Below are positions 590 through 25,740 of a stretch of 64,000 bases of DNA, in pieces. A program made the translations under genes and the position numbers. Origin of the DNA: Escherichia coli (GTDB lineage Bacteria; Pseudomonadota; Gammaproteobacteria; Enterobacterales; Enterobacteriaceae); the NCBI RefSeq assembly GCF_003018255.1, contig NZ_CP027440.1; one strand, written 5' to 3'. A model generated the notes under the pieces. It saw only the letters and a list, made by a program, of their open reading frames with translations, did not search any database and was not told where the DNA came from. The first letter of the stretch is position 1, and each line of letters begins with the position of its first letter.

Positions 590-674
590 GCCGAAGTGGC
601 GAAATCGGTAGACGCAGTTGATTCAAAATCAACCGTAGAAATACGTGCCGGTTCGAGTCCGGCCTTCGGCACCA
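590..674 (+). tRNA. leuX: tRNA-Leu, anticodon CAA
   Basis: 85-nt GCCGAAGTGGCGAAATCGGTAGACGCAGTTGATTCAAAATCAACCGTAGAAATACGTGCCGGTTCGAGTCCGGCCTTCGGCACCA with a CAA anticodon loop, long variable arm and 3' CCA. A P4-type integrase gene follows immediately downstream. Confidence 0.9.
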
Positions 675-896: not shown

Positions 897-2573
897 ATGG
901 CACTAACAGATCGCGCTATAGTCCACGCCAAGCCTTGTGGCAAGCCGTATAAGCTCAGTGACTCGCATGGACTTTACCTGCTGGTTAACCCTAACGGTTC
1001 AAAACGCTGGTACATCAAGTACCGCTTTGTAAACAAAGAGAAAAAGCTCGCTTTAGGCCCTTATCCGCTTTTGACGCTTGCACAGGCAAGACGCATGCGT
1101 GAAGAGGCACAATTATTGCTGATTTCCGGCATCGATCCGAGTGCACGCCGAAAAGCAGAACGCCTTGCGATAACGCCGGAACATACGTTTGAGTCTGTGG
1201 CACGTGAATGGGTCACCAGTAACGTGAACTGGTCGGCGGAACATAAGAAGCGGGTGCTGCGTTATTTCGAGCTTTACGTATTCCCCACGAACGGCAGCTG
1301 TGACATCACCAAAATGAAGGTCAAAGATCTGCTGGTGCCCATCAAGGAAGTGGAGAAAGCGGGCAAACTGGATGTTGCTTCCCGGCTTCAGCAGCGCACT
1401 GCCTGCGTGATGCGCTACGCCGTCCAGAACGGCATTATCGATCATAACCCTGCATCAGATTTAACCGGCGCGGTCTCCACGCCCAAAGTACGGCATCACC
1501 CGGCGTTGGATCTGAATCTTATCCCTGATTTCCTGGAAAGAATCGACGATTACAAAGGCCGTCAACTGACTCAACTGGCGGTAAAACTGGCACTGCTGCT
1601 GTTTATCCGCTCCAGCGAACTGCGCTTTGCCCGCTGGGATGAAATTGATCTGCGTAACGCCATGTGGACCATCCCCGCTGAGCGTGAGCCGATCCCCGGC
1701 GTTAAATATTCAGCGCGTGGGGCGAAGATGCACTCCCCACACCTGGTCCCATTGTCACGTCAGGCCATCGAACTGCTGCACGAGGTGCGGCAGCATTGCC
1801 GACCGGGAACTGAACTGGTGTTCCCCGGCGATCACAATTACCGCAAGCCGATGAGTGAAAACACCATCAACAAAGCGCTGCGGGTGATGGGCTACGACAC
1901 CCAGAAAGATGTCTGTGGCCACGGTTTTCGCACTATGGCCTGTAGCGCGCTGGTGGAGTCGGGGCTGTGGTCAAGCGACGCGGTAGAGCGCCAGATGAGC
2001 CATCAGGAGCGCAAGCGCGTGCGTGCGGCGTATATCCACAAGGCGCAGCATCTCGAAGAACGTTGGGAGATGATGCAGTGGTGGGCGGATTATCTGGATG
2101 CAAACCGGTTCAGGCATGTTGTGCCGTATGGCTTCAAAAAGTCGCCGGGAGGCGCACTCGACCATATGAGTTTCCAGGAGCGCAATGACCGGCAGCTAGA
2201 GGAGCTGAAAGCCAGAATACTGGCTGACTCGGAATGGCTGACGGCGTCTGAATTATCCGCAAAAGCGGGCTTTCGTTCCGCCGATCCTGATGCTGGTCCG
2301 AAAGGCTGGAAAGCCGCCGGGAAGATATTCTCGCTGAAGGTCGATGGTGAGGATTTATACCCTGATTATGTTCTGGATGAGAAAATGCGGCCTCTCAAGG
2401 TTGTCCGTTTGATTCTTTCACTGTTTAAGGAGCGTAAAACACCGTGGGGGCTGGCTATCTGGTTTGGCTCGGCTAATCGCAGGTTGAGAGGTGGGAGGCC
2501 GAAAGACCTGCTGATTTCGAAGTCAGAGTTGGTTCTGATGGCGGCGCAGGAGGAGGTGGAGTCGGGGGAGTAG
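897..2573 (+). CDS. P4-type tyrosine integrase with an unusual ~140-aa C-terminal extension
   Basis: 558-aa ORF starting MALTDRAIVHAKPCGKPYKLSDSHGLYLLVNPNGSKRWYIKYRF, typical P4/CP4-57-type integrase N-terminus with catalytic-domain motifs (HGFR, RAAY). The ORF runs ~140 aa beyond the usual integrase end (...WADYLDANR). Confidence 0.85.
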   Translation: MALTDRAIVHAKPCGKPYKLSDSHGLYLLVNPNGSKRWYIKYRFVNKEKKLALGPYPLLTLAQARRMREEAQLLLISGIDPSARRKAERLAITPEHTFESVAREWVTSNVNWSAEHKKRVLRYFELYVFPTNGSCDITKMKVKDLLVPIKEVEKAGKLDVASRLQQRTACVMRYAVQNGIIDHNPASDLTGAVSTPKVRHHPALDLNLIPDFLERIDDYKGRQLTQLAVKLALLLFIRSSELRFARWDEIDLRNAMWTIPAEREPIPGVKYSARGAKMHSPHLVPLSRQAIELLHEVRQHCRPGTELVFPGDHNYRKPMSENTINKALRVMGYDTQKDVCGHGFRTMACSALVESGLWSSDAVERQMSHQERKRVRAAYIHKAQHLEERWEMMQWWADYLDANRFRHVVPYGFKKSPGGALDHMSFQERNDRQLEELKARILADSEWLTASELSAKAGFRSADPDAGPKGWKAAGKIFSLKVDGEDLYPDYVLDEKMRPLKVVRLILSLFKERKTPWGLAIWFGSANRRLRGGRPKDLLISKSELVLMAAQEEVESGE

Positions 2574-11397: not shown

Positions 11398-11435
11398 CTA
11401 CAAGCCCTGTTCATCACACCGTCAGTACGAAATCT

Positions 11436-12938: not shown

Positions 12939-14296
12939 CGCGGGCTGTCCGGCTGCGGGTTATTGAGGTTGTGCAGACGGCTGTCGCTGTCGTCCGGCAC
13001 CTCCACCACCTGTCCCTGAAGCTGGTCGCGCTGCTGTTTGCGTTGCAGGATCTGGCTGGCGGTATTGCGCGTCAGTGCCTGGCGGAAATCGAGTTCCAGC
13101 TTCAACTGGTTCAGCTCTTCATCCAGTTGGGCGGTGGTTTTGCCCAGGCTCTCCTGCGCCTCTTTGACGTTGGCGATATTGGGTTCACGCATACCTGCGA
13201 GCAGCGTACGCCGGGCCAGCAACGCCTGCTCGGTGACGCGGGCCAGCGCCAGTTCTCCCGCCAGCCGTTCGGTGAGGACGGCAACGTCCGGATCGTCGCG
13301 CAGCGCCTCGACCACGCCGCGGGTCAGTTGCATAGAACCGCCGGAAGCTTTCGCCAAATTGTCGAAGCCGGGTTTCTGACTGCCATTAACCAGATCTGTC
13401 AGGAGGGGCAGGATCTTCGCCTTTTCTTCGTCGATCAGCGGATGCAGGCCGATCCCCGCCTGCGCGCCGGAACGCGCATCCGGATCGTCGGTGACCTGCG
13501 CCACGCTGATGGTCTGCTCGCCAACGACGCGGGTCATCCACCCGGCGGCCTCTTCAGGGGATGTCCAGGTGCTACAAAGTTCCCCGTCGCATTCAGAGGA
13601 GCTAAGAGAAGTAGTGCTGGTGGCAGGCTGCTGGTTGAGGATATTCCATCCTGCGGCGGTGGCGTCATGGACTACCTTAATCGGCAGCTGGCCTTTGCCG
13701 CCGCGCTTTTCACCGCCCACCCAGCGTTTACCCTTTTCGGCGGCCTCTTTTGCCGCTTTCTGGTCGGTGCGGATGGCATCGTTATCGCTGGCGGCGAGGG
13801 ACTGGTAGTTCTCCGCTTTGGCTCCGGAAAACCAGGCGGAATCGGCCGCCAAATCGGTCATCTTCTCCGCCATTTTCTGGCAGTTCAGCAGAGACTTATC
13901 AAAATCCAGCCGCCCCTGCAGCACGCCGTTGGTCAGCAGATCATAAAGCTGCGGATTGGCGCGCTGGATAATCATCGCGGGCAGGCTGGCGACCGCCCCG
14001 GTGGCACTCTGGATAACGTTGCCCATCAGTTGCTGGAAGCCGTCGGTGATGCCGTTGAGCTGGTTGCGCACGGTGGTGTCGATGTCGAAATTGCCGCACA
14101 TCATATCGGCGTTCCAGCCAAGACCTAAGCTAAGCGGCGAGGGGCTACGGCGTACCGGAGGCGGCATGACCGCTTCACCGCCGCCAATCTGGTAGTAAAG
14201 CAGGTCGTCAACCGCGCCTCGCGTGCGGAAACTGTAGTCGTCTGCCGCCACGCAAACCCCGGCGAAAAACAATAAGACCAGGAAAAGGGCTCTCAT
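12935..14296 (-). CDS. ICE conjugative-transfer protein, TraH-like, secreted
   Basis: Signal peptide MRALFLVLLFFAGVCVA with GGAGG ribosome-binding site; 4-bp overlap with the downstream gene. Confidence 0.55.
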   Translation of the reverse strand: MRALFLVLLFFAGVCVAADDYSFRTRGAVDDLLYYQIGGGEAVMPPPVRRSPSPLSLGLGWNADMMCGNFDIDTTVRNQLNGITDGFQQLMGNVIQSATGAVASLPAMIIQRANPQLYDLLTNGVLQGRLDFDKSLLNCQKMAEKMTDLAADSAWFSGAKAENYQSLAASDNDAIRTDQKAAKEAAEKGKRWVGGEKRGGKGQLPIKVVHDATAAGWNILNQQPATSTTSLSSSECDGELCSTWTSPEEAAGWMTRVVGEQTISVAQVTDDPDARSGAQAGIGLHPLIDEEKAKILPLLTDLVNGSQKPGFDNLAKASGGSMQLTRGVVEALRDDPDVAVLTERLAGELALARVTEQALLARRTLLAGMREPNIANVKEAQESLGKTTAQLDEELNQLKLELDFRQALTRNTASQILQRKQQRDQLQGQVVEVPDDSDSRLHNLNNPQPDSPR

Positions 14297-14307
14297 CACC
14301 GCCTCCG

Positions 14308-15231
14308 TTAACCCGTACTGCCGAGAAAGGTTTGCCCCCGGCGCGGACAGCATTTATAGGGCCGCCACAGCGTCCAGGCGTACGCGCCATCCTCCGCCAG
14401 TTTGTTGGCGTAGGTGTCAGTGGCACTGCCATCCGGGAACACCGAACAGGCGGCGGATTTTTTCGGCGTGAGCATTTGCCAGCGATGGTTATCGCTGTCG
14501 CCTTCGATAACCGGGGAGGGCGGCCAGTACCCGGCGCGCGATGAGGCGGTCAGCGGCGTGTAGAGATGCGGTTGCCCGGTACGGGTCACCAGATCGGCCG
14601 CGCGCTGGGCGATAACGGCGGCGGCTTTATAGTCGTGCGTCTGGTTGATGGCTCCGGCTCGCGGGTAGATATTGCCCCACATATCGCCGTTCTGACCGAC
14701 TTCCCGCATGCCCGGCGTCAGCGCCTCCGGGTATGTCATTTCCGGCACACCGCTGCGCCACGCCAGCGTATCGGGTTGACTCAGAAAGTACGGTTGAAAA
14801 GGCTGCGATGAAGGTGAGCAGATATAGCCAAACTGGGTGAAAAATTTTGCCAGTTCATCACCCGCCGGGAAGCCGATGGCATCGGCATTCTTAAAGCGGA
14901 CCTTGCTGTGCTGGCTGGCAGAACGAGGATTCGTATCGCCGCCGCCTTCGGCAACACCGGGCAACGGTGGGCTGAGTAACGACATCTCCGCCCACGGATT
15001 CTGCCCGGTGTTGCTGTAAGCCGACACCACCAGATCCGGGCGGAAATGGCTGACCTTCACCGACGTGCGTACCGTACAGCCGAACGGCGTGCAGTACAGC
15101 CAGTAGCACAGGCCGACCACCCGGTATTTCACACAGTCCGGCGTAAGCGCAGAGGCTGCGATCTCCGGCGTAGTAATCGCCCTGAGGGGGAAAGCAGCGC
15201 ACAGCAGCAGAAGGATGTATTGGGCTCGCAT
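14308..15231 (-). CDS. ICE conjugative-transfer protein, TraU-like, secreted
   Basis: Signal peptide MRAQYILLLLCAAFPLRA; Cys-rich segment CVKYRVVGLCYWLYCTPFGC. Confidence 0.55.
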   Translation of the reverse strand: MRAQYILLLLCAAFPLRAITTPEIAASALTPDCVKYRVVGLCYWLYCTPFGCTVRTSVKVSHFRPDLVVSAYSNTGQNPWAEMSLLSPPLPGVAEGGGDTNPRSASQHSKVRFKNADAIGFPAGDELAKFFTQFGYICSPSSQPFQPYFLSQPDTLAWRSGVPEMTYPEALTPGMREVGQNGDMWGNIYPRAGAINQTHDYKAAAVIAQRAADLVTRTGQPHLYTPLTASSRAGYWPPSPVIEGDSDNHRWQMLTPKKSAACSVFPDGSATDTYANKLAEDGAYAWTLWRPYKCCPRRGQTFLGSTG

Positions 15232-15443
15232 CGCGCCTCCGACAGCAGATATTTCTTCTGTCGGGTGTACCGCAATATCTGTTCATCAACGGTATGAAAC
15301 TGGAAGCCGTTACAGAAAATTGTTGAGTTTTACATCATCACCAGACGTTGTTTCTGGTGGTATTCTCTGGTTCAGGCCTGGACTGTGAAGGCAGTTCTGG
15401 CCTGATTTTTTTTCATTTTTTATTTTGATAAGGAGCAAGGCTG

Positions 15444-16034
15444 ATGCCTGAAAAACGAAAGCATCTCACTCGTCATGAAGTGGGACAGATATTGCTTGCA
15501 GCAGACAGAGGGATCCATTTTGAGCGCGATTATTGCCTCATTCAGATGTGTTTTTTACACGGCCTGCGGGTCAGTGAACTGTGCGGGATGCGCCTGTCTG
15601 ATATCGATCTGATCGGGCGCTCGGTGTATGTCCGGCGGTTGAAAAACAGTCTCTCCACGCAGCATCCGCTGTTTGATAATGAACTGCCTGCGCTGATGCG
15701 CTGGCTGGCGGTACGCAACCGCTGGCGGGATGCGGATTCAGACTGGTTGTTCCTGTCGCAGAAGGGTGGTGCGCTGTCGCGCCATCAGGTTAGATTGTTA
15801 CTCAAACGTTACGGAGAACTGGCAGGTGTCAGCATTTCCGCTTATCCGCATATGCTGAGACACGGTTGCGGTTACGCGCTGGCAGATCTGGGGCGCGACA
15901 CCCGTCTGATACAGGATTATCTGGGGCACCGGAACATCCGGCATACGGTGATTTATACGGCGACAAATACGCAGAGGTTTATGAATGTCTGGGGAAACGT
16001 GAGAGAAAACCACACAATTAGTGCCAGAATGTAA
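15444..16034 (+). CDS. FimB/FimE-family tyrosine recombinase (fimbrial phase-switch recombinase)
   Basis: 196 aa; HPHMLRHGCGYALADLGRDTRLIQDYLGHRNIRHTVIYTA is close to the FimE C-terminal catalytic region (R-H-R-Y motifs). Confidence 0.85.
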   Translation: MPEKRKHLTRHEVGQILLAADRGIHFERDYCLIQMCFLHGLRVSELCGMRLSDIDLIGRSVYVRRLKNSLSTQHPLFDNELPALMRWLAVRNRWRDADSDWLFLSQKGGALSRHQVRLLLKRYGELAGVSISAYPHMLRHGCGYALADLGRDTRLIQDYLGHRNIRHTVIYTATNTQRFMNVWGNVRENHTISARM

Positions 16035-16160
16035 AGTAGTATCAGAAAAATTTAGCAAACTGTCAAAATTTTTCTGAGACCCCTTTTGGTAACGGACTAT
16101 CTTGTTGTTTTTAAAATAATATTTAATGTAACAAATATGTAGTCTCTCTCTGGTCCTGGC

Positions 16161-16197
16161 TGGCAACGTGCTTAAGTGGTTCACGTTGCCAGTTTTT
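16161..16197 (+). terminator. Hairpin plus T-run in the recombinase-to-fimbrial-subunit intergenic region
   Basis: tggcaacgtg...cacgttgcca stem followed by agttttta; could instead be part of a switch element. Confidence 0.35.
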
Positions 16198-16401
16198 ACT
16201 CACTCACCGCATTACGGTTTTATGCCATTTTGAAAGCCATACTTCACTTCCACTGACATTTTATTTTTCACCCCCTTCGTCCACCACATTTTCTCCTGAA
16301 CTCACCACTCTGGCACTAACGGGAAAGTCTTACGCGGGTTTTCTCGTCACCAGAGTGAATCAGGGTTGAGCCCTGAGTGATCTTTCATCAAGGAGAAACG
16401 T

Positions 16402-16914
16402 ATGAAAAAAACGATGTTAAGCGCGTGTTTTTTACTGGTGGCCGGGAATGCGGTCGCCAATGATGGCACCATCCATTTTACCGGCAGTATTACCGACCAG
16501 ACATGCACCGTGGACAGCGGTTCGCAAAACCTGAACGTCGATCTGGGCAATGTAGGGCAAACCGCACTGAACGGTGCGGCCGGGATGAAAGCCTCCCCGA
16601 CGCGCTTCACGCTCAACCTGAGTGGTTGCCCTGATACCGTTACCGGGGCGAACGTGAAGTTTGACGGGACGTCTGATGGCGTAAACCAGAACCTGCTGGC
16701 GCTGGACAGCGGTACCGGGATTGCGACCGGCGTTGGTATCGAAATCGCCGATAAAAATGGTGCAGTCATTCCTCTGCATACGGCCTCAATGGATTACCCC
16801 CTCGCGGCAGGCAGCAATACGCTGGACTTCGTCGCCCGCTATGTTTCCACCGGTACCGCGGTAACCACAGGTACAGCTAACGGTACCTCGCAGTTCACCA
16901 TTAACTACAAATAA
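16402..16914 (+). CDS. Major fimbrial subunit (type 1 / chaperone-usher pilin)
   Basis: Signal peptide, conserved Cys pair, C-terminal donor-strand-like TSQFTINYK. Confidence 0.85.
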   Translation: MKKTMLSACFLLVAGNAVANDGTIHFTGSITDQTCTVDSGSQNLNVDLGNVGQTALNGAAGMKASPTRFTLNLSGCPDTVTGANVKFDGTSDGVNQNLLALDSGTGIATGVGIEIADKNGAVIPLHTASMDYPLAAGSNTLDFVARYVSTGTAVTTGTANGTSQFTINYK

Positions 16915-17027
16915 CGCTGTGCCGTCGCGGGGTTCACCACCTCTCCCATCCTACCCGACCTGGTGTACCGCCGCATAACAGGGACTGTTTCGCAGGGATG
17001 CGTATTTTTCGTCCGGAGAACAAGAAG

Positions 17028-17708
17028 ATGAACAGGTATGCAGACGTGGTGCTGGCACTGTTGCTGGCTTTCCTGAGCGTACAGGCGCAGGCCGGGATCG
17101 TGATTGGCGGTACGCGCGTGATTTATGACGGGGATAAAAAAGAGACGGCCGCCTCGGTACGCAACCCGGAGAAATCCGGCGTCTACCTGGTGCAAAGCTG
17201 GGTAGACAGTGGCGAACAGGGGGGCAAAACGCCGTTTATCGTCACGCCACCGTTGTTTCGCATTAATCCCGGCGAAGAGAACATGCTGCGCATTGTGCGC
17301 ACCGGAGGCAACCTGCCGCAGGACAGGGAGTCGGTGTTCTGGCTGAACGTGAAATCGATCCCCGCTACCGACGACAGCCATTCGCGCACCAACGTGTTGC
17401 AGGTAGTGGTCAAGTCGCGGCTGAAACTGTTTTACCGTCCGGCAGGCCTGGAAGGGCAGCCGGAGAGTGCCTATCACCAGTTGAGCGTTGCCCACAGCGG
17501 TAACCATCTTACCGTCAGCAATCCCACACCGTATTACGTCACGCTGTTCACCCTGAAGGTCGACGGGCAGGAGATTAAAGAGGCGGATATGGTGCCGCCG
17601 AAAGGCAGTGTGAGTTTCACGCTACCGTCAGCGACTGCAAGCGCGGTGACCTGGCAGGCCATCAGCGACTATGGCGGTGTCAGCCAGACCGAAAGCCGTA
17701 AGCTGTGA
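17028..17708 (+). CDS. Periplasmic fimbrial chaperone (PapD/FimC family)
   Basis: Start MNRYADVV with GGAGAA ribosome-binding site; signal peptide; chaperone-fold motifs. Confidence 0.85.
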   Translation: MNRYADVVLALLLAFLSVQAQAGIVIGGTRVIYDGDKKETAASVRNPEKSGVYLVQSWVDSGEQGGKTPFIVTPPLFRINPGEENMLRIVRTGGNLPQDRESVFWLNVKSIPATDDSHSRTNVLQVVVKSRLKLFYRPAGLEGQPESAYHQLSVAHSGNHLTVSNPTPYYVTLFTLKVDGQEIKEADMVPPKGSVSFTLPSATASAVTWQAISDYGGVSQTESRKL

Positions 17709-17719
17709 AGGAGGACGTG

Positions 17720-20236
17720 ATGAATAACCCGACGCCACGTTTGATGATAATCCTGCTGACGCTGTTGTTGGCAATAGTGCTTTTGTCTGGCTATTTGCGT
17801 AATGCCGAGGCGCGTGAGGTGTTTAACCCCCACGCGCTGGAGATTGATAACCCCGGCCAGCCGGTGGCGGATTTATCCACCTTTGCGGAATCCGGTGGTC
17901 AGCTACCTGGTACCTACCGCGTAACGGTCTTCGTGAACGGTGAAAAGCAGAGCGACGCACAGGATATTGCTTTTATTGACGGAGCCAAAAAGAAACTCAG
18001 CCCGCAGATAACGCCTGCGATGCTGAAAGCCTGGGGCGTCAAAACGGACGTCTTCCCGGCACTGGCAGCACTGCCGCCGGATCAACCACTGGATGATATT
18101 GGCCGCTATATCCCGATGGCCAACACTGAACTGCGCTTCAGTAAATTGCAGTTGAACGTCAGTATTCCCCAGGCGGCAATGAATGCCAGCGCCAGAGGAT
18201 ACGTGGATCCGTCCGAATGGGACGAAGGTGTCCCCGCCGCACTGCTGAACTACAACCTCAGCGGCAGCAACACCTGGCGCGATGGACAAAACGGTTCGGA
18301 TGATAACTACTACGCGAACCTGCAAAGCGGTATCAACCTCGGCGCGTGGCGGCTACGCAACTACTCGACCTGGAATTATGACGAAGATAATGGTAGCCAC
18401 TGGGATTCAGTAAACACGTACCTGCAACGGGATATCCAGCGCCTGAAGGGACAACTGACGCTCGGCGACAGCTACACGCCGTCGGACATCTTCGACAGCG
18501 TCCAGTTTCGCGGCGCGCAGTTGGCATCTGACGACAACATGCTGCCGGACAGCCTGCGCGGGTTCGCCCCGGTGATCCGCGGTATCGCCCAGTCTAACGC
18601 TCAGGTGACCATTAAGCAGAACGGCTACATCATCTACCAGAGCTACGTCGCGCCGGGTGCGTTTACCATCACCGATCTGTATCCGACCTCGGGCAGCGGT
18701 GACCTGGAAGTGACCATCAAAGAGGCCGACGGCAGCGAGCGCACCTTCGTCCAGCCGTTCTCGGCGGTGCCGATTATGCAACGTGAAGGCCGCCTGAAAT
18801 ATGCCCTGACCGCCGGGAAATACCGCAGCGGCAATGAGGACAGCGACGAGCCGCAGTTCGGCCAGGTCACTGCGATTTACGGTCTGCCGCATGCTATCAC
18901 CGTCTATGGCGGCACGCTGTACTCGGACGATTATCAGTCTGGCGCCGCAGGGCTCGGTTTTGGCCTCGGTGAACTCGGTTCGCTGTCAGCCGATATCACC
19001 GCCGCCCATACCACGCTCAATAACGATGAAACCCACAACGGGCAGTCGTACCGGGTGCAGTATTCGAAGGATTTTCAGACCACCGACACCAGCTTCACGC
19101 TGGCGGCATATCGCTACTCCACCGCCGGATTTTACACCTTCCAGGAAGCCAACGACCTGAGGGCTGATGATGATAACGGCTGGCAGATGACGTACAACAA
19201 ACGCCAGCGCCTCCAGTTAGATCTCAGTCAGAGTATCGGTAGCTATGGCTCGTTTTTTATCTCCGGCTACCAGCAGGATTACTGGCAGGAGGACGGCTAC
19301 GAACGCACGTTGAGCGCGGGCTGGAACGGGAATATCGACGGTATCAGCTACAGCGTTACCTGGAGTTACAGCGACTACCCGGAGAGCACGCAGCCTGCCG
19401 ACCAGCAACTGGCGTTCAACATCCAGGTGCCGCTCAGCCGCTTTATGCCGAACGCCTGGGCGAGCTACAGCGTCAACACCGCGAAACACGGCGATACCCG
19501 CCAGCAGGTAGGGCTGAACGGTACGGCGCTTGCCGACAACAACCTGAGCTACAGCCTCCAGCAGAGCTACACCAACCATGGTGTGGGCGGCTCCGGCAAT
19601 ATCAACGCCGACTATAAAGGCGGGCAGGGGGAAATCACCGGAGGCTACAACTATGACGACGACACGCAGCAGGTTAACTACGGGCTGAAGGGCGGTATTG
19701 TCGCGCATCCGCATGGCATCACGCTTTCGCAGCCGCTCGGCCAGTCGCTGGCGATCGTGAAAGCGCCCGGTGCGGATGATACGAAGGTACAGAACAACAC
19801 CGGGGTTTACACCGACTGGCGCGGTTATGCGGTAGTGCCGTATGTGAACCCGTACAAGAAAAACCGTATTGCGCTCGACACCAGCACGCTTGGCGACGAA
19901 GTGGATACCGACACTGCCGTACAGACCGTGACCCCCACGCAGGGTGCCGTGGTGATGGCGGATTTTAACACCCGTGTCGGGCGGCGTGTGCTCATGACGC
20001 TGCTGTACCGTGGGCTGCCAGTCCCCTTTGGCGCAGAGGCGAAGCTGAAAGAGGGCGGCAGCGGTATTGTCGGCGATGATGGCCAGGTCTATCTGACTGG
20101 CGTGCCGGAGGAAGGCGATATTGCGGTTAACTGGAACGGAGCACAACAGTGCGTGGTGCATTACCGTTTACCGGAACAGGAAAACCAGCCGTCAGTGATC
20201 CTGGTGAACCAGGAATGCAGGGAGGTGGCAAAATGA
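17720..20236 (+). CDS. Outer-membrane fimbrial usher (FimD/PapC family)
   Basis: About 840 aa, signal peptide, usher length and composition; AGGAGG ribosome-binding site before ATG 17720. Confidence 0.9.
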   Translation: MNNPTPRLMIILLTLLLAIVLLSGYLRNAEAREVFNPHALEIDNPGQPVADLSTFAESGGQLPGTYRVTVFVNGEKQSDAQDIAFIDGAKKKLSPQITPAMLKAWGVKTDVFPALAALPPDQPLDDIGRYIPMANTELRFSKLQLNVSIPQAAMNASARGYVDPSEWDEGVPAALLNYNLSGSNTWRDGQNGSDDNYYANLQSGINLGAWRLRNYSTWNYDEDNGSHWDSVNTYLQRDIQRLKGQLTLGDSYTPSDIFDSVQFRGAQLASDDNMLPDSLRGFAPVIRGIAQSNAQVTIKQNGYIIYQSYVAPGAFTITDLYPTSGSGDLEVTIKEADGSERTFVQPFSAVPIMQREGRLKYALTAGKYRSGNEDSDEPQFGQVTAIYGLPHAITVYGGTLYSDDYQSGAAGLGFGLGELGSLSADITAAHTTLNNDETHNGQSYRVQYSKDFQTTDTSFTLAAYRYSTAGFYTFQEANDLRADDDNGWQMTYNKRQRLQLDLSQSIGSYGSFFISGYQQDYWQEDGYERTLSAGWNGNIDGISYSVTWSYSDYPESTQPADQQLAFNIQVPLSRFMPNAWASYSVNTAKHGDTRQQVGLNGTALADNNLSYSLQQSYTNHGVGGSGNINADYKGGQGEITGGYNYDDDTQQVNYGLKGGIVAHPHGITLSQPLGQSLAIVKAPGADDTKVQNNTGVYTDWRGYAVVPYVNPYKKNRIALDTSTLGDEVDTDTAVQTVTPTQGAVVMADFNTRVGRRVLMTLLYRGLPVPFGAEAKLKEGGSGIVGDDGQVYLTGVPEEGDIAVNWNGAQQCVVHYRLPEQENQPSVILVNQECREVAK

Positions 20237-21237
20237 GAGTATGGCGCGGGATGATTCTGCTGGCGGGGATCCTGTTCTGCCAGGCGTCGTGGGCGTTTTG
20301 CACGTCTTCGGTGAGTTTCTCCATCAGCCCCGGTACGGTGGTGGTCCAGCGGGATGCTGTGGTGGGGGAACCCATTAGCGACTGGCTGGTGTCGAACCAG
20401 GGGATGGCCTATCAGGACTGCAATTATGATGCAACGCCACAATACGTCATCAATGCAGGCATCAAAAACACGGGCTCCCGCGCCAGCGTCACCTGGAATG
20501 GTGAGGCGGTGTTTAACAGTAATGTCGCAGGTGTGGGATTTGTGTTTGAAGGCCGCTCCTCGGTCGACAGCAATCCGTTACCGGAAAACTGGATCGGTAT
20601 CGCCAGCGGGCAGTCGCAGGTATTCACGCTCCAGATAAGCCACAGCGTTGGCTACCATCCCTCCATTAACGATCAGGCGCGGATCCGGCTGATAAAAACC
20701 GGCGACATTACGCCCGGTACGCTGAGCGGCAACCTGGGGCGTTTTATCGCGGGGACAAGGGAGAACGGGCAGTGGTCGACTGAAATTCCCATTACATTTT
20801 CCGGTGGGCAAATCACCACCATCGCCTGCTCAGTGACCACGCCTGATGTCAATGTGCCGCTGGGGCAGCATCAAAAAGCGGAGTTCTCCGGGCCGGGAAC
20901 GGGAACCGGCTGGCAGGCGTTTAACATCGGGCTGGACTGCGATAAAAGTGCCCGTATCAACGTTCAGATAGATGCCGTACAGGATCCGTCCAACGTGGCT
21001 GGCGTGATGAAGCTGGACAGCGCGCCCGGAGACATGGCGGCTACGGGCATCGGTGTCCAGTTGTTCTTTGCACCGGATAACAGCGCCGTACAGTTTGGTC
21101 AGTCACGCTATTACTATACCTCTCCCAATGGCGGTACTGAGACAGTGCAGCTTAAGGCGCGGTATTACCAGACCGCAGCCACGATTACTGCAGGTGTTGC
21201 CAATGCCACGGCGACCTTCACGCTGACCTATAAATGA
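20233..21237 (+). CDS. Fimbrial minor subunit / adhesin-like protein 1
   Basis: Start MRVWRGMILLAGILFCQASWA overlaps the usher stop by 4 bp (ATGA); pilin-type C-terminus ATFTLTYK. Confidence 0.7.
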   Translation: MRVWRGMILLAGILFCQASWAFCTSSVSFSISPGTVVVQRDAVVGEPISDWLVSNQGMAYQDCNYDATPQYVINAGIKNTGSRASVTWNGEAVFNSNVAGVGFVFEGRSSVDSNPLPENWIGIASGQSQVFTLQISHSVGYHPSINDQARIRLIKTGDITPGTLSGNLGRFIAGTRENGQWSTEIPITFSGGQITTIACSVTTPDVNVPLGQHQKAEFSGPGTGTGWQAFNIGLDCDKSARINVQIDAVQDPSNVAGVMKLDSAPGDMAATGIGVQLFFAPDNSAVQFGQSRYYYTSPNGGTETVQLKARYYQTAATITAGVANATATFTLTYK

Positions 21238-21255
21238 CGTCGCCGGAGTGTTGAG

Positions 21256-22203
21256 ATGAGAAAAATTCTTTTCTTCCTGCTGTTGATGATAGCCGTCCTG
21301 CCGGAGGTTCAGGCCACCTGTTCGTTCTACGGTGGTGTGACATCAGAAGTATCGGGTTACCTGAATTTCGGCAACGTGGTTATCCAGCGGGATGCACAGG
21401 TCGGCAGCACGATTGCCACTGCCATTACAGGGGCATACAACAATGGCGACGGCATTGCCGGGTGTAAGCGGGAGGCCTGGACCGCCCGCTGGGAACTGAC
21501 GCAATGGGGGACGCTGAGTGGCTATGGGAATGGTGTCTACAACACCAACCTGCCAGGGGTAGGATTACGTCTGAGTGCGGCCTCGACAGGTAAAACATTG
21601 CCCTATGAAACCAGCTACGCCTACAACGCTGGCGGCACCTGGGTATCCATTCCCGGTGATGGCATCAAGGGCGAGCTTATCAAAACCGGGGATATCACCA
21701 GCGGTACATTAACGGACGGTGTGCTGGCGCGCGCTTCGGTAGTGAATCAGTTTTATTTTGCCAACGTCACGTTGAACGGGATGAACACAGTGAAATCAGA
21801 AGCTTGTACTGTGACCACGCCCTCTGTTGATGTCCCGATGGGGGATCACGATAAAAGCGAATTCAGTGGTGCGGGATCTTCAACCGACTGGGTGAGCTTT
21901 GATATTGGTTTGAGCTGCGATGTCGGGGCGAGAATAAACGTACGTATCGATGCCACTGCGGATGCTTCCGCCGGTTCGCAAGGCGTCATGCTGATTGATA
22001 GCGGCGGGGCGTCTGGCGTGGGGATACAACTTCATTACCGCCCGGATGATGCCGCTGTCCAGTACGGTCAGGAACGGTTTTACTGGCAGTCGGTATATGG
22101 TGACGAGATCGTGCAGCTTAAGGCGCGATATTACCAGACTGCAGGCTCGATCACGCCAGGTGCGGCAAACGGTACGGCGACGTTTACGATGAGTTATAAA
22201 TAG
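21256..22203 (+). CDS. Fimbrial minor subunit / adhesin-like protein 2 (paralog of previous)
   Basis: Signal peptide MRKILFFLLLMIAVLPEVQA; C-terminal pilin domain ATFTMSYK matching the previous gene. Confidence 0.7.
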   Translation: MRKILFFLLLMIAVLPEVQATCSFYGGVTSEVSGYLNFGNVVIQRDAQVGSTIATAITGAYNNGDGIAGCKREAWTARWELTQWGTLSGYGNGVYNTNLPGVGLRLSAASTGKTLPYETSYAYNAGGTWVSIPGDGIKGELIKTGDITSGTLTDGVLARASVVNQFYFANVTLNGMNTVKSEACTVTTPSVDVPMGDHDKSEFSGAGSSTDWVSFDIGLSCDVGARINVRIDATADASAGSQGVMLIDSGGASGVGIQLHYRPDDAAVQYGQERFYWQSVYGDEIVQLKARYYQTAGSITPGAANGTATFTMSYK

Positions 22204-22214
22204 CGCGTAATCAT

Positions 22215-23762
22215 ATGGAATATTCTATGTCGGATATTGTCGCCGGGAACAGGATTGCTGCTCAATATTTAAGAATGTCTACCGAGCATCAGAAATATTC
22301 GCCGGAGAACCAGCGGGAATATATCGAGAAGTATGCAAAAGAACACTGTATTACCATTAAATATACCTATGACGACGCTGGCCGAAGTGGGCTGAGCCTG
22401 GATAACAGGCCTGGCCTGCGTTCGCTGTTATATGATGTTGAAAACGGAATAATAAAAGTCTCGTTAATTCTTGTTTACGATGTCAGTCGGTTTGGTCGTT
22501 TTCAGGATATTGAAGAGGCTGCTCATTACTCGTGGCTACTGAAGCGTAATGGTGTGCGCATTATTTATTGCGCGGAGCCTTTCTCGGAAGAACAGACCGA
22601 ATTGTTTATGCTGGGATTATCTTACTCCCGCTATGGCGCCGCAACTTACAGTAAAAACCTTTCACAAAAAGTTTTTCTTGGCCAGGCAAACCTCGTTCGG
22701 CGGGGTTATTATCAAGGTGGTATGCCTGGCTATGGCATTCGGAGATTATTAATTGATGAACATACTAATCCGAAAGGCATGCTTCTGCCGGGGCAAAGGA
22801 AAAGCCTGCAAACTGACAGAGTAATATTGATCCCGGGGCCCGCGGAAGAGGTGGTAATAGTCAATAAAATCTATGACATGTTTATTGATGAGGGCAAGCC
22901 TGAGTTTGTTATTGCTTCAGAACTGAACCGGAAGAACATCCCCGCCGAGAATGGGCTCCAGTGGAGCCGATGTAAAATTCATCAGATACTGACCAATGAA
23001 AAATATATTGGCAATAATGTTTATAACAGAACCTCCGGACGATTGAAGACCCGAAGTGTCAGGAATCCTCAGGATCAGTGGATCAGATGTGACGGCGCGT
23101 GGGACCCTGTGGTATCAGTAGAGAAATTTGAGGCGGCTAAAAGGATTATTGAAGCCAGGGCCGTTCAGTACAGTGATGATGAACTGCTGGATAAACTACG
23201 CCATCTGCTGAAGCTTCGTGGCAGATTATCCGGGATTGTGATTGATGAAGAGGAACTGTTTCCATCGAGCAGCATTTTTCGTTCACGGTTTGGTGGGTTA
23301 GTCAGGGCTTACACCCTTATTGGTTATCACCCGCGCCATGATTACTCTTATCTTGAAATAAAAAAGCAGATTGCAGAATGCCATCTCACTTTCATGGATA
23401 ATTTGGTGCAGGATATATACCGATATGGCGGTTGGGCAGAGATGCATCAGGATGGTTCATTATATATTAATGATGAGTTTTTTGTTTCCGCTAATCTGGT
23501 TCGCTGCCAACGTTTGTCGTCAGGTAAGCTTCGTTGGAAGATAAAATTTAATGTATCCCATTATTGTGATGTCATGATCTTTCCACGGTTGGATAGCACA
23601 AATAACTCCGTGGTTGATTACTTTATGTTTCCGGCTATTGATGTGTTGTATAACGATTTAACGCTTCATGAGAACAATGGTTTTATCCTCGAACTATATC
23701 GATTTGATGATTTGTCATGTCTGGAAAATCTTGTAAAACGAACTGGTCTGGAGAGTAAATAA
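22215..23762 (+). CDS. Large serine recombinase (resolvase/invertase catalytic domain plus recombinase domain)
   Basis: N-terminal AAQYLRMSTEHQ...YDDAGRSGLSLDNRPGLRSLL...YDVSRFGR matches the serine-recombinase catalytic domain; 515 aa; starts 11 bp after the fimbrial operon. Confidence 0.8.
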   Translation: MEYSMSDIVAGNRIAAQYLRMSTEHQKYSPENQREYIEKYAKEHCITIKYTYDDAGRSGLSLDNRPGLRSLLYDVENGIIKVSLILVYDVSRFGRFQDIEEAAHYSWLLKRNGVRIIYCAEPFSEEQTELFMLGLSYSRYGAATYSKNLSQKVFLGQANLVRRGYYQGGMPGYGIRRLLIDEHTNPKGMLLPGQRKSLQTDRVILIPGPAEEVVIVNKIYDMFIDEGKPEFVIASELNRKNIPAENGLQWSRCKIHQILTNEKYIGNNVYNRTSGRLKTRSVRNPQDQWIRCDGAWDPVVSVEKFEAAKRIIEARAVQYSDDELLDKLRHLLKLRGRLSGIVIDEEELFPSSSIFRSRFGGLVRAYTLIGYHPRHDYSYLEIKKQIAECHLTFMDNLVQDIYRYGGWAEMHQDGSLYINDEFFVSANLVRCQRLSSGKLRWKIKFNVSHYCDVMIFPRLDSTNNSVVDYFMFPAIDVLYNDLTLHENNGFILELYRFDDLSCLENLVKRTGLESK

Positions 23763-24649
23763 TGAAATCTTTTGATGAACAGATAGAACTTGTCGATATC
23801 AGTGATATTTATATCGCAAATCCACGGAAAAGGAATAAATTCATTCATAATGAAATAAAAGAGAACATAAAAACCATTGGTCTGAAACGGCCTGTTAGCG
23901 TGCGCCCAGTGAATAATGAAAACTATAAATATGCCCTGATTTGTGGTCAGGGACGACTTGAAGCGTATATTGAGTATGGTGAAACGAAAATTCCTGCAAT
24001 CATCAAGCAGGTTGATGAAGAGACAGCGCACCTGATGAGCCTGGCTGAAAACATCGCAAGACGTAATCCCCGGGCGGCAGAGCTAATGGAAGATATCAGA
24101 AGAATGAAGACCAGTGGCCTGACCGATCGTGAAATAGGCTTGCGGCTTGGGTATAATTCGAGTTGGGTAAATGGGGTGATCACTCTGTTGTCATCCGGAG
24201 AGAAGCATCTTTTGCGGGCATTTGAGACTGGCGATATTCCCTTGTATCTTGCTGTGGAAATATCCCGGTCAGGAGATGAGGAAACTCAGGAACTGCTGAC
24301 GGTCGCCCTGAAAGAAGGACATATCAAGGGTGGGCAAATTAATAAGATCAGGCGCATACTTGAACAACGTAAGAAAGGCGATAAAGGTACGATTAGTACG
24401 GCTTTTTTTCCTGGGAAAAAACAGAAAAAACTGACCCCGGAAGAACTGGCTAATGTCTACCAGGAAAACATTAATGAGCAAAAAGCCATTCTGCTGAAAT
24501 CCACAATGGTTAAAGAGAAAATTCTGGCAGTAAAGCAAATATTTGGTTATTTACTTAAAGATAATGATTTTGTTACATTGCTGCACAGTAATAATATCCA
24601 CGATATTCCTTCTTTACTGGATGGCAGTGATGTATCGGGGGAGAAATAA
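23762..24649 (+). CDS. ParB/Srx-fold (ParB N-terminal-domain-like) protein 1
   Basis: Motifs ELVDISDIYIANPRKRN, GLKRPVSVRP, ICGQGRLEA (arginine-finger-like) and an HTH-like GLTDREIGLRLG; TAATG overlap with the recombinase stop. Confidence 0.65.
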   Translation: MKSFDEQIELVDISDIYIANPRKRNKFIHNEIKENIKTIGLKRPVSVRPVNNENYKYALICGQGRLEAYIEYGETKIPAIIKQVDEETAHLMSLAENIARRNPRAAELMEDIRRMKTSGLTDREIGLRLGYNSSWVNGVITLLSSGEKHLLRAFETGDIPLYLAVEISRSGDEETQELLTVALKEGHIKGGQINKIRRILEQRKKGDKGTISTAFFPGKKQKKLTPEELANVYQENINEQKAILLKSTMVKEKILAVKQIFGYLLKDNDFVTLLHSNNIHDIPSLLDGSDVSGEK

Positions 24650-24650
24650 G

Positions 24651-25541
24651 ATGATTTCACAATGTTTTGACTCCCGATTTTATACCTTTAAGGTGGAATC
24701 ACTGGTGTATGCCAGAACGCTGCCGGTTAATGTTAAATTCAGTACGAAGTACAAACAAATTAAAGCCTCTGTCGATGAAATTGGGTTAATTGAACCCATT
24801 GTGGTTTATATCAATGACGCCAATGATAAAGTCATTCTGGATGGACATCTTCGCGTTGAAGTTTTGAAAGAACTCGGAATAACTACTGCTCATTGTCTGA
24901 TATCCCCTGTGGAGGATACATATTCATATAACAAACGTGTTAGTCGCCTTACCATTGTGCAGGCCCAAAACATGCTGCTTAAAGCGGTTGAATCTGGCGT
25001 TTCAGTTGAAAAACTATGCGCCGTACTGGGTGTCACGCCAGATACGCTGATTGGTAAACTGAAAATTTCTGATGGCATTGCCCCTGAAGTCATGGCGTTA
25101 CTGGCAGAAAAAAATGTACCGCAGACCATTTTCTCTGTGTTGAAAAAACTAAAGTTCTATAAGCAGATAGAAATGGTTAACACCATGATCAGTATTAATA
25201 ATTTCACCCGCAAATTTGCGATGTCGATGCTGCATGCCGTTGCCCCTGAACATCTTGTAGCGCCTAAAAAAGATGCCAGCAGAGAAACAGATATCAGAAA
25301 AAATCTCGAAAGACTGGAAAAAGAAATGGCTTCCGTTCAGGTGGAAACGCAGCATCTTCAGGATGAATATGCTGAGAATAACCTTCGGCTGGTTATCATT
25401 AAAAATCACATTGAACGTCTGCTGGCGAACGGTCAGGTACTTAACTGGCTTTATGATAACCATCAGGAGTACCTTTCTGTGCTCAAGCAAATCTCGGGGC
25501 TGGATGATTTGAATAAGCTTGGCCAGACAATTGAGGAATGA
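24651..25541 (+). CDS. ParB/Srx-fold protein 2
   Basis: IEPIVVYINDANDKVILDGHLRVEVLKELG is ParB-box-like; start 2 bp after the previous stop. Confidence 0.6.
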   Translation: MISQCFDSRFYTFKVESLVYARTLPVNVKFSTKYKQIKASVDEIGLIEPIVVYINDANDKVILDGHLRVEVLKELGITTAHCLISPVEDTYSYNKRVSRLTIVQAQNMLLKAVESGVSVEKLCAVLGVTPDTLIGKLKISDGIAPEVMALLAEKNVPQTIFSVLKKLKFYKQIEMVNTMISINNFTRKFAMSMLHAVAPEHLVAPKKDASRETDIRKNLERLEKEMASVQVETQHLQDEYAENNLRLVIIKNHIERLLANGQVLNWLYDNHQEYLSVLKQISGLDDLNKLGQTIEE

Positions 25542-25740
25542 CACATTTTTAAAGCAAGGACTGCTGTTTTACAGATTGCCACTATGATGGGATGCACTGA
25601 GAGAGGAGGGCGTGCTGGTGGTTGACGTGATTCAACTGGTGCGGAAAATCTTGCTCAAAGGACGATGGCTTAAAATCAAGTTGCTGTTTCAAAAATGAAA
25701 AAGTAGATTTACATCCACTTTTCTTACTGAGGTAAAAATA

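What the first reader, a model, noticed from the sequence alone, without database searches (positions are those of the whole stretch)
15444..22203. Complete chaperone-usher fimbrial operon carried as ICE cargo under a FimB/FimE-like recombinase
The operon encodes a recombinase, major subunit, chaperone, usher and two adhesin-like paralogs. A recombinase upstream of the pilin gene implies phase-variable expression through an invertible promoter. I could not identify the flanking inverted repeats by eye in 16035-16401; only a hairpin at 16161-16197 stands out, so the switch is unproven.
Basis: partly seen in the sequence, partly recalled or inferred. Interest (0 to 1): 0.4.

Follow-up and report, generated by a model that had tools for sequence, protein, structure and literature searches.

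The report
Kpc-type phase-variable fimbrial operon, switch found

Summary
The six genes are real and intact: a tyrosine DNA invertase (15444-16034), major subunit, chaperone, usher and two full-length two-domain adhesins.

They sit in a cargo slot of a PFGI-1/pKLC102-class ICE remnant at tRNA-Leu(CAA) in E. coli. The window is 100% identical to strain JNE23-011.

The missing switch exists. Perfect 11-bp inverted repeats TTAGTGCCAGA lie at 16018-16028 and 16309-16319 and bound a 302-bp segment.

The repeat pair alone is not significant (70 of 1000 shuffles do as well). In nine diverged lineages, E. coli fimS included, the two arms keep position and spacing (299-314 bp) and change by compensatory substitutions.

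Inside the segment, 9 bp from the left repeat, is a conserved promoter (TTGACA-17-GATACT). It points away from the pilin gene, the same geometry as fimS OFF in the same genome.

No ON copy was found anywhere in public data, so inversion remains unobserved.

From memory, this matches the published K. pneumoniae KpcI/kpcS/kpcABCD system. The differences are a second adhesin and an E. coli host. It is a new member of a known kind, of modest interest.

The parts
590..674 (+). tRNA-Leu(CAA), the attachment site of the island that carries the operon
   Evidence: ARAGORN; RefSeq annotation of the identical E. coli JNE23-011 region
898..2145 (+). ICE integrase, annotated as a pseudogene (missing its C-terminus)
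   Evidence: RefSeq annotation transferred from L001 with an offset of 4769
15372..15413 (+). Hairpin plus U8 run (intrinsic-terminator shape) immediately upstream of the recombinase ribosome-binding site; conserved with compensatory stem changes in relatives
   Evidence: Fold -23.7 kcal/mol, z = -4.95; alignment of upstream regions
15444..16034 (+). Tyrosine-type DNA invertase (KpcI/FimB/FimE/MrpI family), 196 aa
   Evidence: PF00589 at E = 6e-42. NF007370 above its cut-off. R42, H136, R139, H162 and Y171 invariant with FimB and FimE. 95% identical to a K. pneumoniae ICE-borne homologue.
16018..16028 (.). Left inverted repeat, core TTAGTGCCAGA (extends to 16031 with one mismatch); overlaps recombinase codons 192-195 (codon 192 from its second base); stop codon at 16032-16034
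   Evidence: covariation with the right repeat
16018..16319 (.). Predicted 302-bp invertible element (kpcS/fimS-like), in the OFF orientation in this window
   Evidence: The core sequence occurs in the 64-kb window only at these two sites.
16038..16066 (-). Sigma-70-like promoter TTGACA-17-GATACT inside the element, 9 bp from the left repeat, firing leftward (antisense to the recombinase). After inversion it would lie at 16271-16299 facing the pilin gene.
   Evidence: The hexamers are unchanged in most relatives; Kosakonia has one substitution in the -35 and L009 keeps TTGACA with -10 AATAAT. Same geometry as PfimA in the OFF fimS of the same genome.
16160..16197 (+). Conserved hairpin (CTGGCAAC...GTTGCCAG) plus T run: a terminator-like block to read-through from the recombinase gene in this orientation
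   Evidence: -21.8 kcal/mol. Relatives fold at -19 to -23 kcal/mol with compensatory inner-stem changes.
16309..16319 (.). Right inverted repeat, core TCTGGCACTAA (extends from 16306)
16402..16914 (+). Major fimbrial subunit, 170 aa
   Evidence: PF00419; 79-84% identical to Klebsiella ICE homologues
17028..17708 (+). Periplasmic chaperone, 226 aa (RefSeq start; the longest ORF starts at 16998)
   Evidence: PapD_N and PapD_C
17720..20236 (+). Outer-membrane usher, 838 aa (RefSeq start; the longest ORF starts at 17705)
   Evidence: PapC_N, Usher and PapC_C. Closest NCBIfam models are the LpfC and FimD ushers, all below their equivalog cut-offs.
20233..21237 (+). Two-domain tip-adhesin-like subunit 1, 334 aa
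   Evidence: Pilin domain. AlphaFold model with pLDDT 88; best full-length PDB matches are CupB6, FocH, FimH, PapG and LpfD. Close homologues carry PF22003.
21256..22203 (+). Two-domain tip-adhesin-like subunit 2, 315 aa, with a MrkD/Abp2D-like receptor-binding domain
   Evidence: PF22003 at 55.6 bits. PDB sequence hits to the Abp2D and MrkD receptor-binding domains. 62% identical to the single adhesin of the Klebsiella 4-gene operon.

Best explanation
The region is a self-contained, phase-variable chaperone-usher fimbrial module of the Klebsiella Kpc type: invertase, invertible promoter, then pilin, chaperone, usher and adhesin. It sits in a cargo slot of a PFGI-1/pKLC102-class integrative conjugative element that is now decayed, at tRNA-Leu in E. 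coli.

The invertase is predicted to recombine the two 11-bp inverted repeats at 16018-16028 and 16309-16319 and so flip the 302-bp segment between them.

In the sequenced orientation the segment's only good sigma-70 promoter (TTGACA-17-GATACT, 16066 to 16038) points back into the invertase gene. A hairpin with a T run at 16160-16197 stops read-through, so the pilus genes are silent (OFF).

After inversion the promoter would lie at 16271-16299. Transcription would start near 16306, about 96 nt before the pilin ATG (ON).

The pilus would be tipped by one of two alternative two-domain adhesins.

Shown here: the genes, the repeats and their covariation, promoter and hairpin conservation, and the ICE context. 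Inferred: that inversion occurs, that this promoter drives the operon, and that the two adhesins are alternative tips.
For: Domains and intact ORFs.

The invertase passes the NCBIfam DNA-invertase model, and its catalytic residues align with FimB and FimE.

An inverted-repeat pair is found at the homologous position, with an outer span of 299-305 bp, in all 21 distinct relatives' switches recovered with one anchor search and in further genera: Klebsiella, Citrobacter, Kosakonia, Entomohabitans, Leminorella and Trabulsiella.

Formal covariation over 14 arm positions in 9 lineages (eight relatives plus E. coli fimS, span 314 bp): 88% of cells complementary, and a covariation score of 0.347 against 0.137 for shuffles (0 of 500 reach it). 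Slid controls give 0.05-0.10. The four variable positions (AGTG, TGTG, CATA, GGAC, GGGG) carry 12 two-sided changes and no mismatch.

The repeat consensus TTnnnnCCA is shared with fimS TTGGGGCCA.

The promoter scores 10 of 12. Its hexamers are unchanged in most relatives, with one -35 substitution in Kosakonia. It is the only site scoring at least 9 of 12 in the intergenic region, and it is positioned like PfimA in the OFF fimS of the same genome.

The hairpin is conserved with compensatory changes.

Recombinase, switch and operon travel together in unrelated genomic contexts and in the same ICE slot in Klebsiella and Citrobacter.

From my own recollection of Wu et al. 2010 (Microbiology 156:1983): KpcI inverts a 302-bp kpcS flanked by 11-bp repeats upstream of kpcABCD in K. 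pneumoniae NTUH-K2044. These are the same numbers as found here. A preprint reports an 80-kb potentially conjugative tRNA-Leu island with a fimbrial operon in the same Klebsiella clone.
Against: No inverted (ON) copy was found.
- 42 of 42 E. coli complete genomes with the intact switch region are colinear.
- JGI metagenome contigs gave 0 ON junctions against 17 OFF junctions.
- Nine predicted ON-state invertase proteins are absent from a 15-billion-protein collection, while the OFF form of the window's allele is on at least 1000 contigs.

For comparison, fimS is non-colinear in at most 5.6% of E. coli genomes. This switch is therefore much more strongly biased, or inactive, in sequenced cultures.

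The 11-bp repeat alone is not significant: 70 of 1000 shuffles do as well.

A terminator-shaped hairpin sits directly upstream of the invertase gene, and no clear invertase promoter was identified.

Identity with the published kpc locus could not be checked, because neither the paper nor the NTUH-K2044 sequence was accessible.
Confidence: 0.8

Rival explanations
1. The switch is a locked or fossil element. The repeats and promoter are inherited from an active ancestor, but in these hosts the invertase is not expressed or not active. The operon is then permanently silent cargo on a decaying island.
For: No ON copy was found in any data set. A terminator-like hairpin lies directly upstream of the invertase, and no promoter was identified for it. 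The island's integrase and topoisomerase III are pseudogenes. In 36 of 43 E. coli carriers the usher is truncated by IS150 and the adhesins are deleted.
Against: The invertase ORF is intact and its catalytic residues are conserved. The repeat arms have been kept complementary through several independent sequence changes across genera, which requires continuing selection for recombination. The same upstream hairpin is present in all relatives, so it is a designed feature and not decay. From memory, Wu et al. 2010 showed that KpcI inverts kpcS in both directions when induced.
Confidence: 0.13
2. The sequenced orientation is the expressing (ON) one. The pilin promoter would then lie elsewhere, either downstream of the right repeat or as a non-consensus promoter, and inversion would switch the operon off.
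For: The same orientation in all assemblies could equally be read as a favoured ON state.
Against: No site scoring at least 9 of 12 faces the pilin gene in this orientation. The only weak 8-of-12 sites lie upstream of the terminator-like hairpin. The conserved 10-of-12 promoter faces away. The geometry is the same as fimS OFF in the same genome.
Confidence: 0.04
3. The invertase's main target is a distant site, for example the resident type 1 switch fimS about 5 kb beyond the island's right end. Its position next to this operon would then be incidental.
For: The repeat cores are similar (TTAGTGCCA against TTGGGGCCA, 7 of 9). From my own knowledge, orphan FimB-like invertases such as IpuA and FimX act on fimS in uropathogenic E. 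coli.
Against: The exact core occurs only twice in the 64-kb window, as the pair flanking the promoter. Invertase, switch and operon are inherited as one unit in ICEs and in non-ICE chromosomal sites of other genera. The repeat core covaries with each module; two tandem modules in Klebsiella carry different cores.
Confidence: 0.03

Closest known systems
Kpc fimbriae of Klebsiella pneumoniae NTUH-K2044: KpcI recombinase, kpcS switch, kpcABCD (Wu et al. 2010, Microbiology 156:1983; recalled from memory, paper not held)
   Same: An invertase gene lies directly upstream. The element is 302 bp with 11-bp inverted repeats. The gene order is major subunit, chaperone, usher, adhesin. K. pneumoniae ICE loci fetched here have a 95% identical invertase, the same repeat core and a 303-bp element. 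Both are associated with a tRNA-Leu conjugative island.
   Different: This operon has five structural genes, not four: a second two-domain adhesin (adh1, 38% identical to adh2) is inserted before the KpcD-like adhesin. The structural proteins are only 79-87% identical and the adhesin 62% identical to the Klebsiella ICE version. The host is E. coli. Identity with the NTUH-K2044 reference itself was not tested.
E. coli type 1 fimbrial switch: fimB, fimE, fimS, fimA
   Same: The invertase belongs to the same family (51% and 48% identity). The repeat consensus is TTnnnnCCA. The element is about 300 bp (314 bp in fimS). The promoter sits about 10 bp inside one repeat and points at the recombinase gene in OFF. 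The invertase gene and the operon are co-oriented.
   Different: There is one invertase, not two. The left repeat lies inside the invertase ORF. A conserved terminator-like hairpin sits in the middle of the element. The repeat core sequence is different. Non-colinear copies were never seen in databases, against up to 5.6% for fimS.
MrpI/MR/P (Proteus mirabilis) and MrfI (Xenorhabdus) single-recombinase fimbrial switches
   Same: A single invertase controls an adjacent chaperone-usher operon. Homologues from Morganella, Providencia, Photorhabdus and Xenorhabdus (one named MrfI) are 60-65% identical, closer than FimB or FimE.
   Different: From memory, mrpI is divergently transcribed and its element is about 250 bp with 21-bp repeats. 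This was not tested here.
PFGI-1 / pKLC102 / PAGI-2 / ICEclc-class integrative conjugative elements
   Same: The element is adjacent to a tRNA gene. It carries a MobH relaxase, TraD, PilL2, the TIGR03745-03759 gene set, a conjugative ATPase and TraG_N.
   Different: The integrase and topoisomerase III are pseudogenes, and no att direct repeat was found. It is probably no longer mobile.

Membership tests
Tyrosine-type DNA invertases (FimB/FimE/MrpI/KpcI) | Phage_integrase catalytic domain in a small (~200 aa) protein without an arm-binding N-terminal domain | tested here: met
   PF00589 covers residues 7-177 of 196
Tyrosine-type DNA invertases (FimB/FimE/MrpI/KpcI) | Scores above the curated cut-off of the NCBIfam DNA-invertase subfamily model | tested here: met
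   NF007370 scores 250.5 bits against a cut-off of 221. NF007371 scores 200.9 against 222, so it is not met.
Tyrosine-type DNA invertases (FimB/FimE/MrpI/KpcI) | Catalytic Arg-His-Arg-His-Tyr residues conserved | tested here: met
   R42, H136, R139, H162 and Y171 are invariant in the alignment with FimB and FimE
Tyrosine-type DNA invertases (FimB/FimE/MrpI/KpcI) | Catalyses inversion of a nearby DNA segment | not testable with these tools
   Needs PCR, reporter assays or read-level data. Database searches found only one orientation.
fimS-type invertible promoter | Short inverted repeats flanking a segment of about 300 bp next to the invertase gene | tested here: met
   11-bp perfect repeats with a 302-bp outer span. 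Conserved position and covarying sequence.
fimS-type invertible promoter | Outward-reading promoter inside the segment, close to one repeat | tested here: met
   Consensus match only: TTGACA-17-GATACT, 9 bp from the left repeat, conserved in relatives. Promoter activity was not measured.
fimS-type invertible promoter | Both orientations observable in populations or assemblies | tested here: not met
   0 of 42 genomes, 0 against 17 metagenome contigs, and 9 predicted ON-state proteins absent. This lowers the claim 'active switch' but not the claim 'built like one'.
Chaperone-usher fimbrial operon (type 1/Lpf-like group, by closest usher and chaperone models) | Major subunit, PapD-like chaperone and an usher with N-terminal, pore and C-terminal domains, all intact | tested here: met
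   Pfam hits. The closest NCBIfam models are LpfB/LpfC and FimC/FimD, all below their equivalog cut-offs, so this is not an orthologue of any named E. coli or Salmonella operon.
Chaperone-usher fimbrial operon (type 1/Lpf-like group, by closest usher and chaperone models) | Two-domain tip adhesin (receptor-binding domain plus pilin domain) | tested here: met
   adh2: PF22003 and hits to the Abp2D and MrkD receptor-binding domains. adh1: model with pLDDT 88 matches CupB6, FocH and FimH over its full length.
Kpc fimbriae (KpcI/kpcS/kpcABCD) | 302-bp switch with 11-bp inverted repeats between the invertase and the pilin gene | tested here: met
   The reference values come from my memory of the 2010 abstract and were not re-read.
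Kpc fimbriae (KpcI/kpcS/kpcABCD) | Four structural genes, kpcABCD | tested here: not met
   There are five genes here, with two adhesins. K. pneumoniae ICE loci have the four-gene form. Citrobacter shares the five-gene form.
Kpc fimbriae (KpcI/kpcS/kpcABCD) | Sequence orthology to the NTUH-K2044 kpc genes | not testable with these tools
   The reference genome is not in any accessible collection. The only test possible was against K. pneumoniae ICE loci of unknown strain: invertase 95%, usher 87%, pilin 79%.
PFGI-1/pKLC102-class ICE | tRNA-adjacent integrase, relaxase, coupling protein and the TIGR037xx mating-pair genes | tested here: met
   RefSeq annotation of the identical region; tRNA-Leu. 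The integrase is a pseudogene.
PFGI-1/pKLC102-class ICE | Flanking att direct repeats (intact, excisable element) | tested here: not met
   No direct repeat of the tRNA 3' end of at least 16 nt was found in the window. The right border abuts a truncated nanS.

The most novel reading that the evidence does not exclude
Because the left repeat lies inside the invertase ORF, each flip would recode the enzyme's C-terminus. The OFF form is 196 aa and ends ...ISARM. The ON form would be 210 aa and end ...ISARVVSSGENVVDEGGEK. In OFF the pilin promoter also fires antisense through the invertase gene. Together these could give a single-invertase system a state-dependent activity or expression, a one-gene equivalent of the FimB/FimE asymmetry. 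That could explain why ON copies are never seen in more than 1000 assemblies.
Probability: 0.1. Interest if true: 0.55.

Novelty: new member of a known kind. Interest (0 to 1): 0.3.

Why it matters
The finding turns an 'unproven switch' into a precisely mapped one, with the repeats, promoter, terminator-like hairpin and current state all located. Orientation-specific primers and locked-ON or locked-OFF constructs can now be designed directly.

It shows that Kpc-type invertase-plus-fimbria modules are recurrent cargo in one slot of a widespread ICE family across Klebsiella, Citrobacter and E. coli. They occur singly, in tandem, or with two adhesins, which is a route for spreading phase-variable adhesins between genera.

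The mechanism is a textbook one and PGAP already annotates the genes correctly. The result is useful for strain biology but not surprising.

Tried and rejected
1. 210-aa invertase homologues from K. michiganensis looked like the predicted 210-aa ON-state isoform. Alignment showed they are frameshift variants that read through the left repeat in another frame (confirmed by reading).

2. I tested whether the ON-state C-terminal tail is under coding constraint. pN/pS was 0.84 in the ON frame, not lower than in the other two frames, and variable sites were spread evenly over codon positions. There is no support for a selected tail.

3. The partial E. coli hit H58 (strain IH5), which starts inside the switch, was suspected to be an inversion or an IS breakpoint. 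The region is a scramble of gene fragments, most likely a misassembly, and is uninformative.

4. The 11-bp repeat was tested as stand-alone evidence. It is not significant: 70 of 1000 dinucleotide shuffles do as well.

5. A search for att direct repeats of the island found none.

6. An Rfam scan of 14500-23000 gave only one chance-level, sub-threshold hit inside the usher gene.

7. Retrieval of Wu et al. 2010 failed because the paper is not held. Seven papers that cite it were searched for details of kpcS: five gave none, and two gave only context, a kpcC nonsense mutation in the CG23-I sublineage and an 80-kb tRNA-Leu island with a fimbrial operon.

8. A plasmid search found no match.
Full report
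**What is there**

The window is E. coli chromosome and is 100% identical over the query to strains JNE23-011 and JNE112863. Between 15444 and 22203 six co-oriented ORFs are intact.

- The first is a 196-aa tyrosine recombinase. It has PF00589 at E = 6e-42 and scores 250.5 bits on NCBIfam NF007370 'tyrosine-type DNA invertase' against a cut-off of 221. It is 51% identical to FimB and 48% to FimE of the same strain. R42, H136, R139, H162 and Y171 are invariant.
- Next come a 170-aa pilin (PF00419), a PapD-type chaperone and a three-domain usher.
- Last are two subunits of 334 and 315 aa, each with an N-terminal domain followed by a pilin domain.
- The second adhesin (adh2) has a clear MrkD-like receptor-binding domain. 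At sequence level it matches the solved Abp2D and MrkD binding domains.
- The first adhesin (adh1) is 38% identical to adh2 over its full length. Its AlphaFold model has pLDDT 88, and its best full-length matches are two-domain tip adhesins: CupB6, FocH, FimH, PapG and LpfD.

'Complete operon with two adhesin-like paralogues' is therefore correct.

**Context**

The identical RefSeq region shows an island of about 61 kb between tRNA-Leu(CAA) (window 590-674) and a truncated nanS. The island carries the gene set of PFGI-1/pKLC102-class ICEs: MobH relaxase, TraG_N, TIGR03756, conjugative ATPase, the TIGR0374x-0375x genes, TraD and PilL2.

The fimbrial module sits between the TIGR03756 (TraU-like) gene and the rest of the transfer genes. 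In K. pneumoniae and Citrobacter ICEs of the same family, the same slot holds related modules:
- one invertase plus a four-gene operon;
- two such modules in tandem;
- the same five-gene, two-adhesin operon as here.

'ICE cargo' is therefore right. The element here is decayed, however. Its integrase and topoisomerase III are pseudogenes, and I found no att repeat.

Only 43 of 5426 complete E. coli genomes carry the locus. In 36 of them the usher is cut by IS150 and the adhesins are lost. The window holds the rare intact form.

**The switch**

The repeat search found a 14-nt, 13-of-14 inverted repeat at 16018-16031 and 16306-16319. Its perfect core is the 11-bp TTAGTGCCAGA / TCTGGCACTAA, and the outer span is 302 bp.

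On its own the repeat proves nothing: 70 of 1000 dinucleotide shuffles of 15232-16401 contain a perfect repeat at least as long. The weight comes from comparison.

- All 21 distinct homologous switches recovered with one anchor search had an arm pair at the same place. So did further loci from Kosakonia, Leminorella, Trabulsiella, Citrobacter and an unnamed enterobacterial lineage.
- These came from ICEs and from unrelated chromosomal sites. The outer span was always 299-305 bp.
- The arm sequence changes between lineages: TTAGTGCCAGA, TTTGTGCCAGAA, TTCATACCAGAA, TAGGACCAA, TTTGGACCA. E. coli fimS has TTGGGGCCA (span 314 bp). The change is always mirrored in the partner arm.
- Counted formally over 14 positions in 9 lineages (eight relatives plus fimS), 88% of cells are complementary. 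The covariation score is 0.347 against 0.137 for shuffles (0 of 500 reach it), and 0.05-0.10 when the partner is slid by 1-3 columns.
- The four variable positions carry 12 two-sided changes and no mismatch.

From established knowledge of tyrosine recombinases, this is the pattern expected of the strand-exchange region of a recombination site pair. That region must be identical in the two partners but is free to differ between systems. Such differences would also keep this switch from recombining with the resident fimS, or with a neighbouring tandem module.

**State and logic**

The only site in 15200-16500 scoring at least 9 of 12 on the sigma-70 scan and lying between the genes is TTGACA-17-GATACT on the minus strand at 16066-16038. 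It is 9 bp inside the left repeat and points into the recombinase gene.

Its hexamers are unchanged in most relatives. Kosakonia has one substitution in the -35, and the most distant relative (L009) keeps TTGACA-17-AATAAT.

As a positive control I examined the strain's own fimS, which lies about 5 kb beyond the island. It has the published PfimA hexamers (TTGAGA-17-TATGAT, from memory) in the same position and orientation next to its left repeat. That is the OFF state.

A scan of the computationally inverted sequence puts the promoter at 16271-16299 facing the pilin gene. In the native orientation only weak 8-of-12 sites face right, and they lie upstream of the hairpin.

It is conserved in all relatives, with invariant outer stems and compensatory inner stems, and is usually followed by a U run. 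In this orientation it would stop read-through from the recombinase gene.

I therefore read the window as OFF. Inversion would give a transcript starting near 16306 with a leader of about 96 nt.

**What was not found**

I looked hard for an ON copy.

- All 42 E. coli genomes with the intact switch region are colinear.
- A degenerate ON-junction pattern found nothing in JGI metagenomes, while the matching OFF pattern found 17 contigs.
- Inversion would change the recombinase C-terminus, so it leaves a protein signature. The predicted ON isoforms of nine alleles are absent from a 15-billion-protein collection. The window's OFF isoform is on at least 1000 contigs.
- For calibration, fimS is colinear with the OFF query in 4456 of 4720 E. 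coli genomes, so at most 5.6% are ON or disrupted.

This switch is thus far more OFF-biased than fimS in sequenced cultures, or it is inactive. A terminator-shaped hairpin with U8 directly upstream of the recombinase start is conserved in relatives and may keep the enzyme scarce.

**Comparison with what is known**

From memory, Wu et al. 2010 described the K. pneumoniae NTUH-K2044 Kpc fimbriae. KpcI lies upstream of kpcABCD and inverts a 302-bp kpcS flanked by 11-bp repeats in both directions when induced. The numbers match what I find.

K. pneumoniae ICE loci fetched here have a 95% identical invertase and the same repeat core. A preprint reports an 80-kb potentially conjugative tRNA-Leu island with a fimbrial operon in the same Klebsiella clone.

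I could not re-read the paper or fetch the reference genome. Orthology to the published locus is therefore inferred, not shown.

The differences from the published system are these:
- a second adhesin gene (adh1 resembles the adhesin of another lineage at 52%, and adh2 resembles the Klebsiella one at 62%);
- an E. coli host;
- a decayed ICE.

PGAP already names the genes correctly.

**Verdict**

The missing repeats have been located, and the switch is mapped and read as OFF. It is a new member (a two-adhesin E. coli variant) of a known kind, and of modest interest.

One feature might repay an experiment. The left repeat overlaps the invertase ORF, so flipping would swap a 1-residue end for a 15-residue acidic tail. 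In OFF the promoter also runs antisense through the invertase gene. I found no coding constraint on the tail (pN/pS 0.84), so I rate a functional role as unlikely.

Noticed in passing
window 22215-26199: A low-GC block (40-47%) lies directly after the fimbrial operon. It encodes a 515-aa large serine recombinase (Resolvase plus Recombinase domains), two ParB/RepB-like proteins and a hypothetical protein. It is absent from the otherwise syntenic Citrobacter (L062) and K. pneumoniae (L005) ICEs, so it looks like a secondary insertion into the cargo region.
   Followed up: partly
window 15372-15413: A textbook intrinsic-terminator shape (14-bp stem with one mismatch, -23.7 kcal/mol, then U8) sits immediately upstream of the invertase ribosome-binding site. 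It is conserved with compensatory changes in all relatives. It either insulates the module or attenuates invertase expression. No invertase promoter was identified.
   Followed up: partly
L005-L008 (K. pneumoniae ICE loci), about 4012-16493: Two complete invertase-switch-fimbrial modules sit in tandem in the same ICE slot. Their repeat cores differ (TTTGTGCCAGAA and TTCATACCAGAA) and their structural genes are only 38-52% identical. This suggests orthogonal switches side by side.
   Followed up: partly
L060 (E. coli S10) 11487-15120; 36 of 43 E. coli carriers: In most E. coli that carry this ICE, the usher is truncated by an IS150 insertion. Both adhesins, the serine recombinase/ParB block and the creatininase gene are deleted. 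The invertase and pilin genes stay identical to the window's.
   Followed up: yes
P0015-P0022 (K. michiganensis and unnamed, 210 aa): These invertase variants have a frameshift near the C-terminus. It makes the ORF read through the left repeat and the promoter region in another frame (...LVPECKVVSEKFSKVSKLF). They are the same length as the predicted ON isoform but are unrelated to it.
   Followed up: yes
L059 26772-28928 (same genome, about 2-5 kb beyond the window's right end): The resident fimB-fimE-fimS-fimA locus lies just beyond the island. fimS is in the OFF orientation, with repeats TTGGGGCCA 314 bp apart. Two related switches therefore sit about 50 kb apart in the same orientation, so recombinase cross-talk is conceivable.
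   Followed up: partly
window 898-2145 and about 50.9-52.7 kb: The ICE integrase (missing its C-terminus) and the ICE topoisomerase III (internal stop) are annotated as pseudogenes, and the right border abuts a truncated nanS. The island is probably immobile.
   Followed up: partly
window about 53-60 kb (GC 32-35%): A very low-GC block at the island's right end encodes DUF262 and DUF3696 proteins, a Dcm-type cytosine methyltransferase with Vsr, HNH endonucleases, and a fragment of a phosphorothioation-dependent restriction enzyme. It looks like a defence-gene cluster. An AbiEi/AbiEii pair lies near the left end, at about 2.8-4.5 kb.
   Followed up: no
window 21139-21235 and 22105-22201: The last 97 nt of the two adhesin genes are 79% identical at DNA level, much more than the rest of the genes. 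This is consistent with a conserved pilin-domain C-terminus or with gene conversion between the paralogues.
   Followed up: no
L017 (JAEWTL010000073.1, labelled 'MAG: Bacillota bacterium'): This contig encodes an invertase 100% identical to the window's and has a near-identical switch, the same sequence as in E. coli S10 (L060). It is almost certainly an enterobacterial contig mis-binned into a Bacillota MAG.
   Followed up: no
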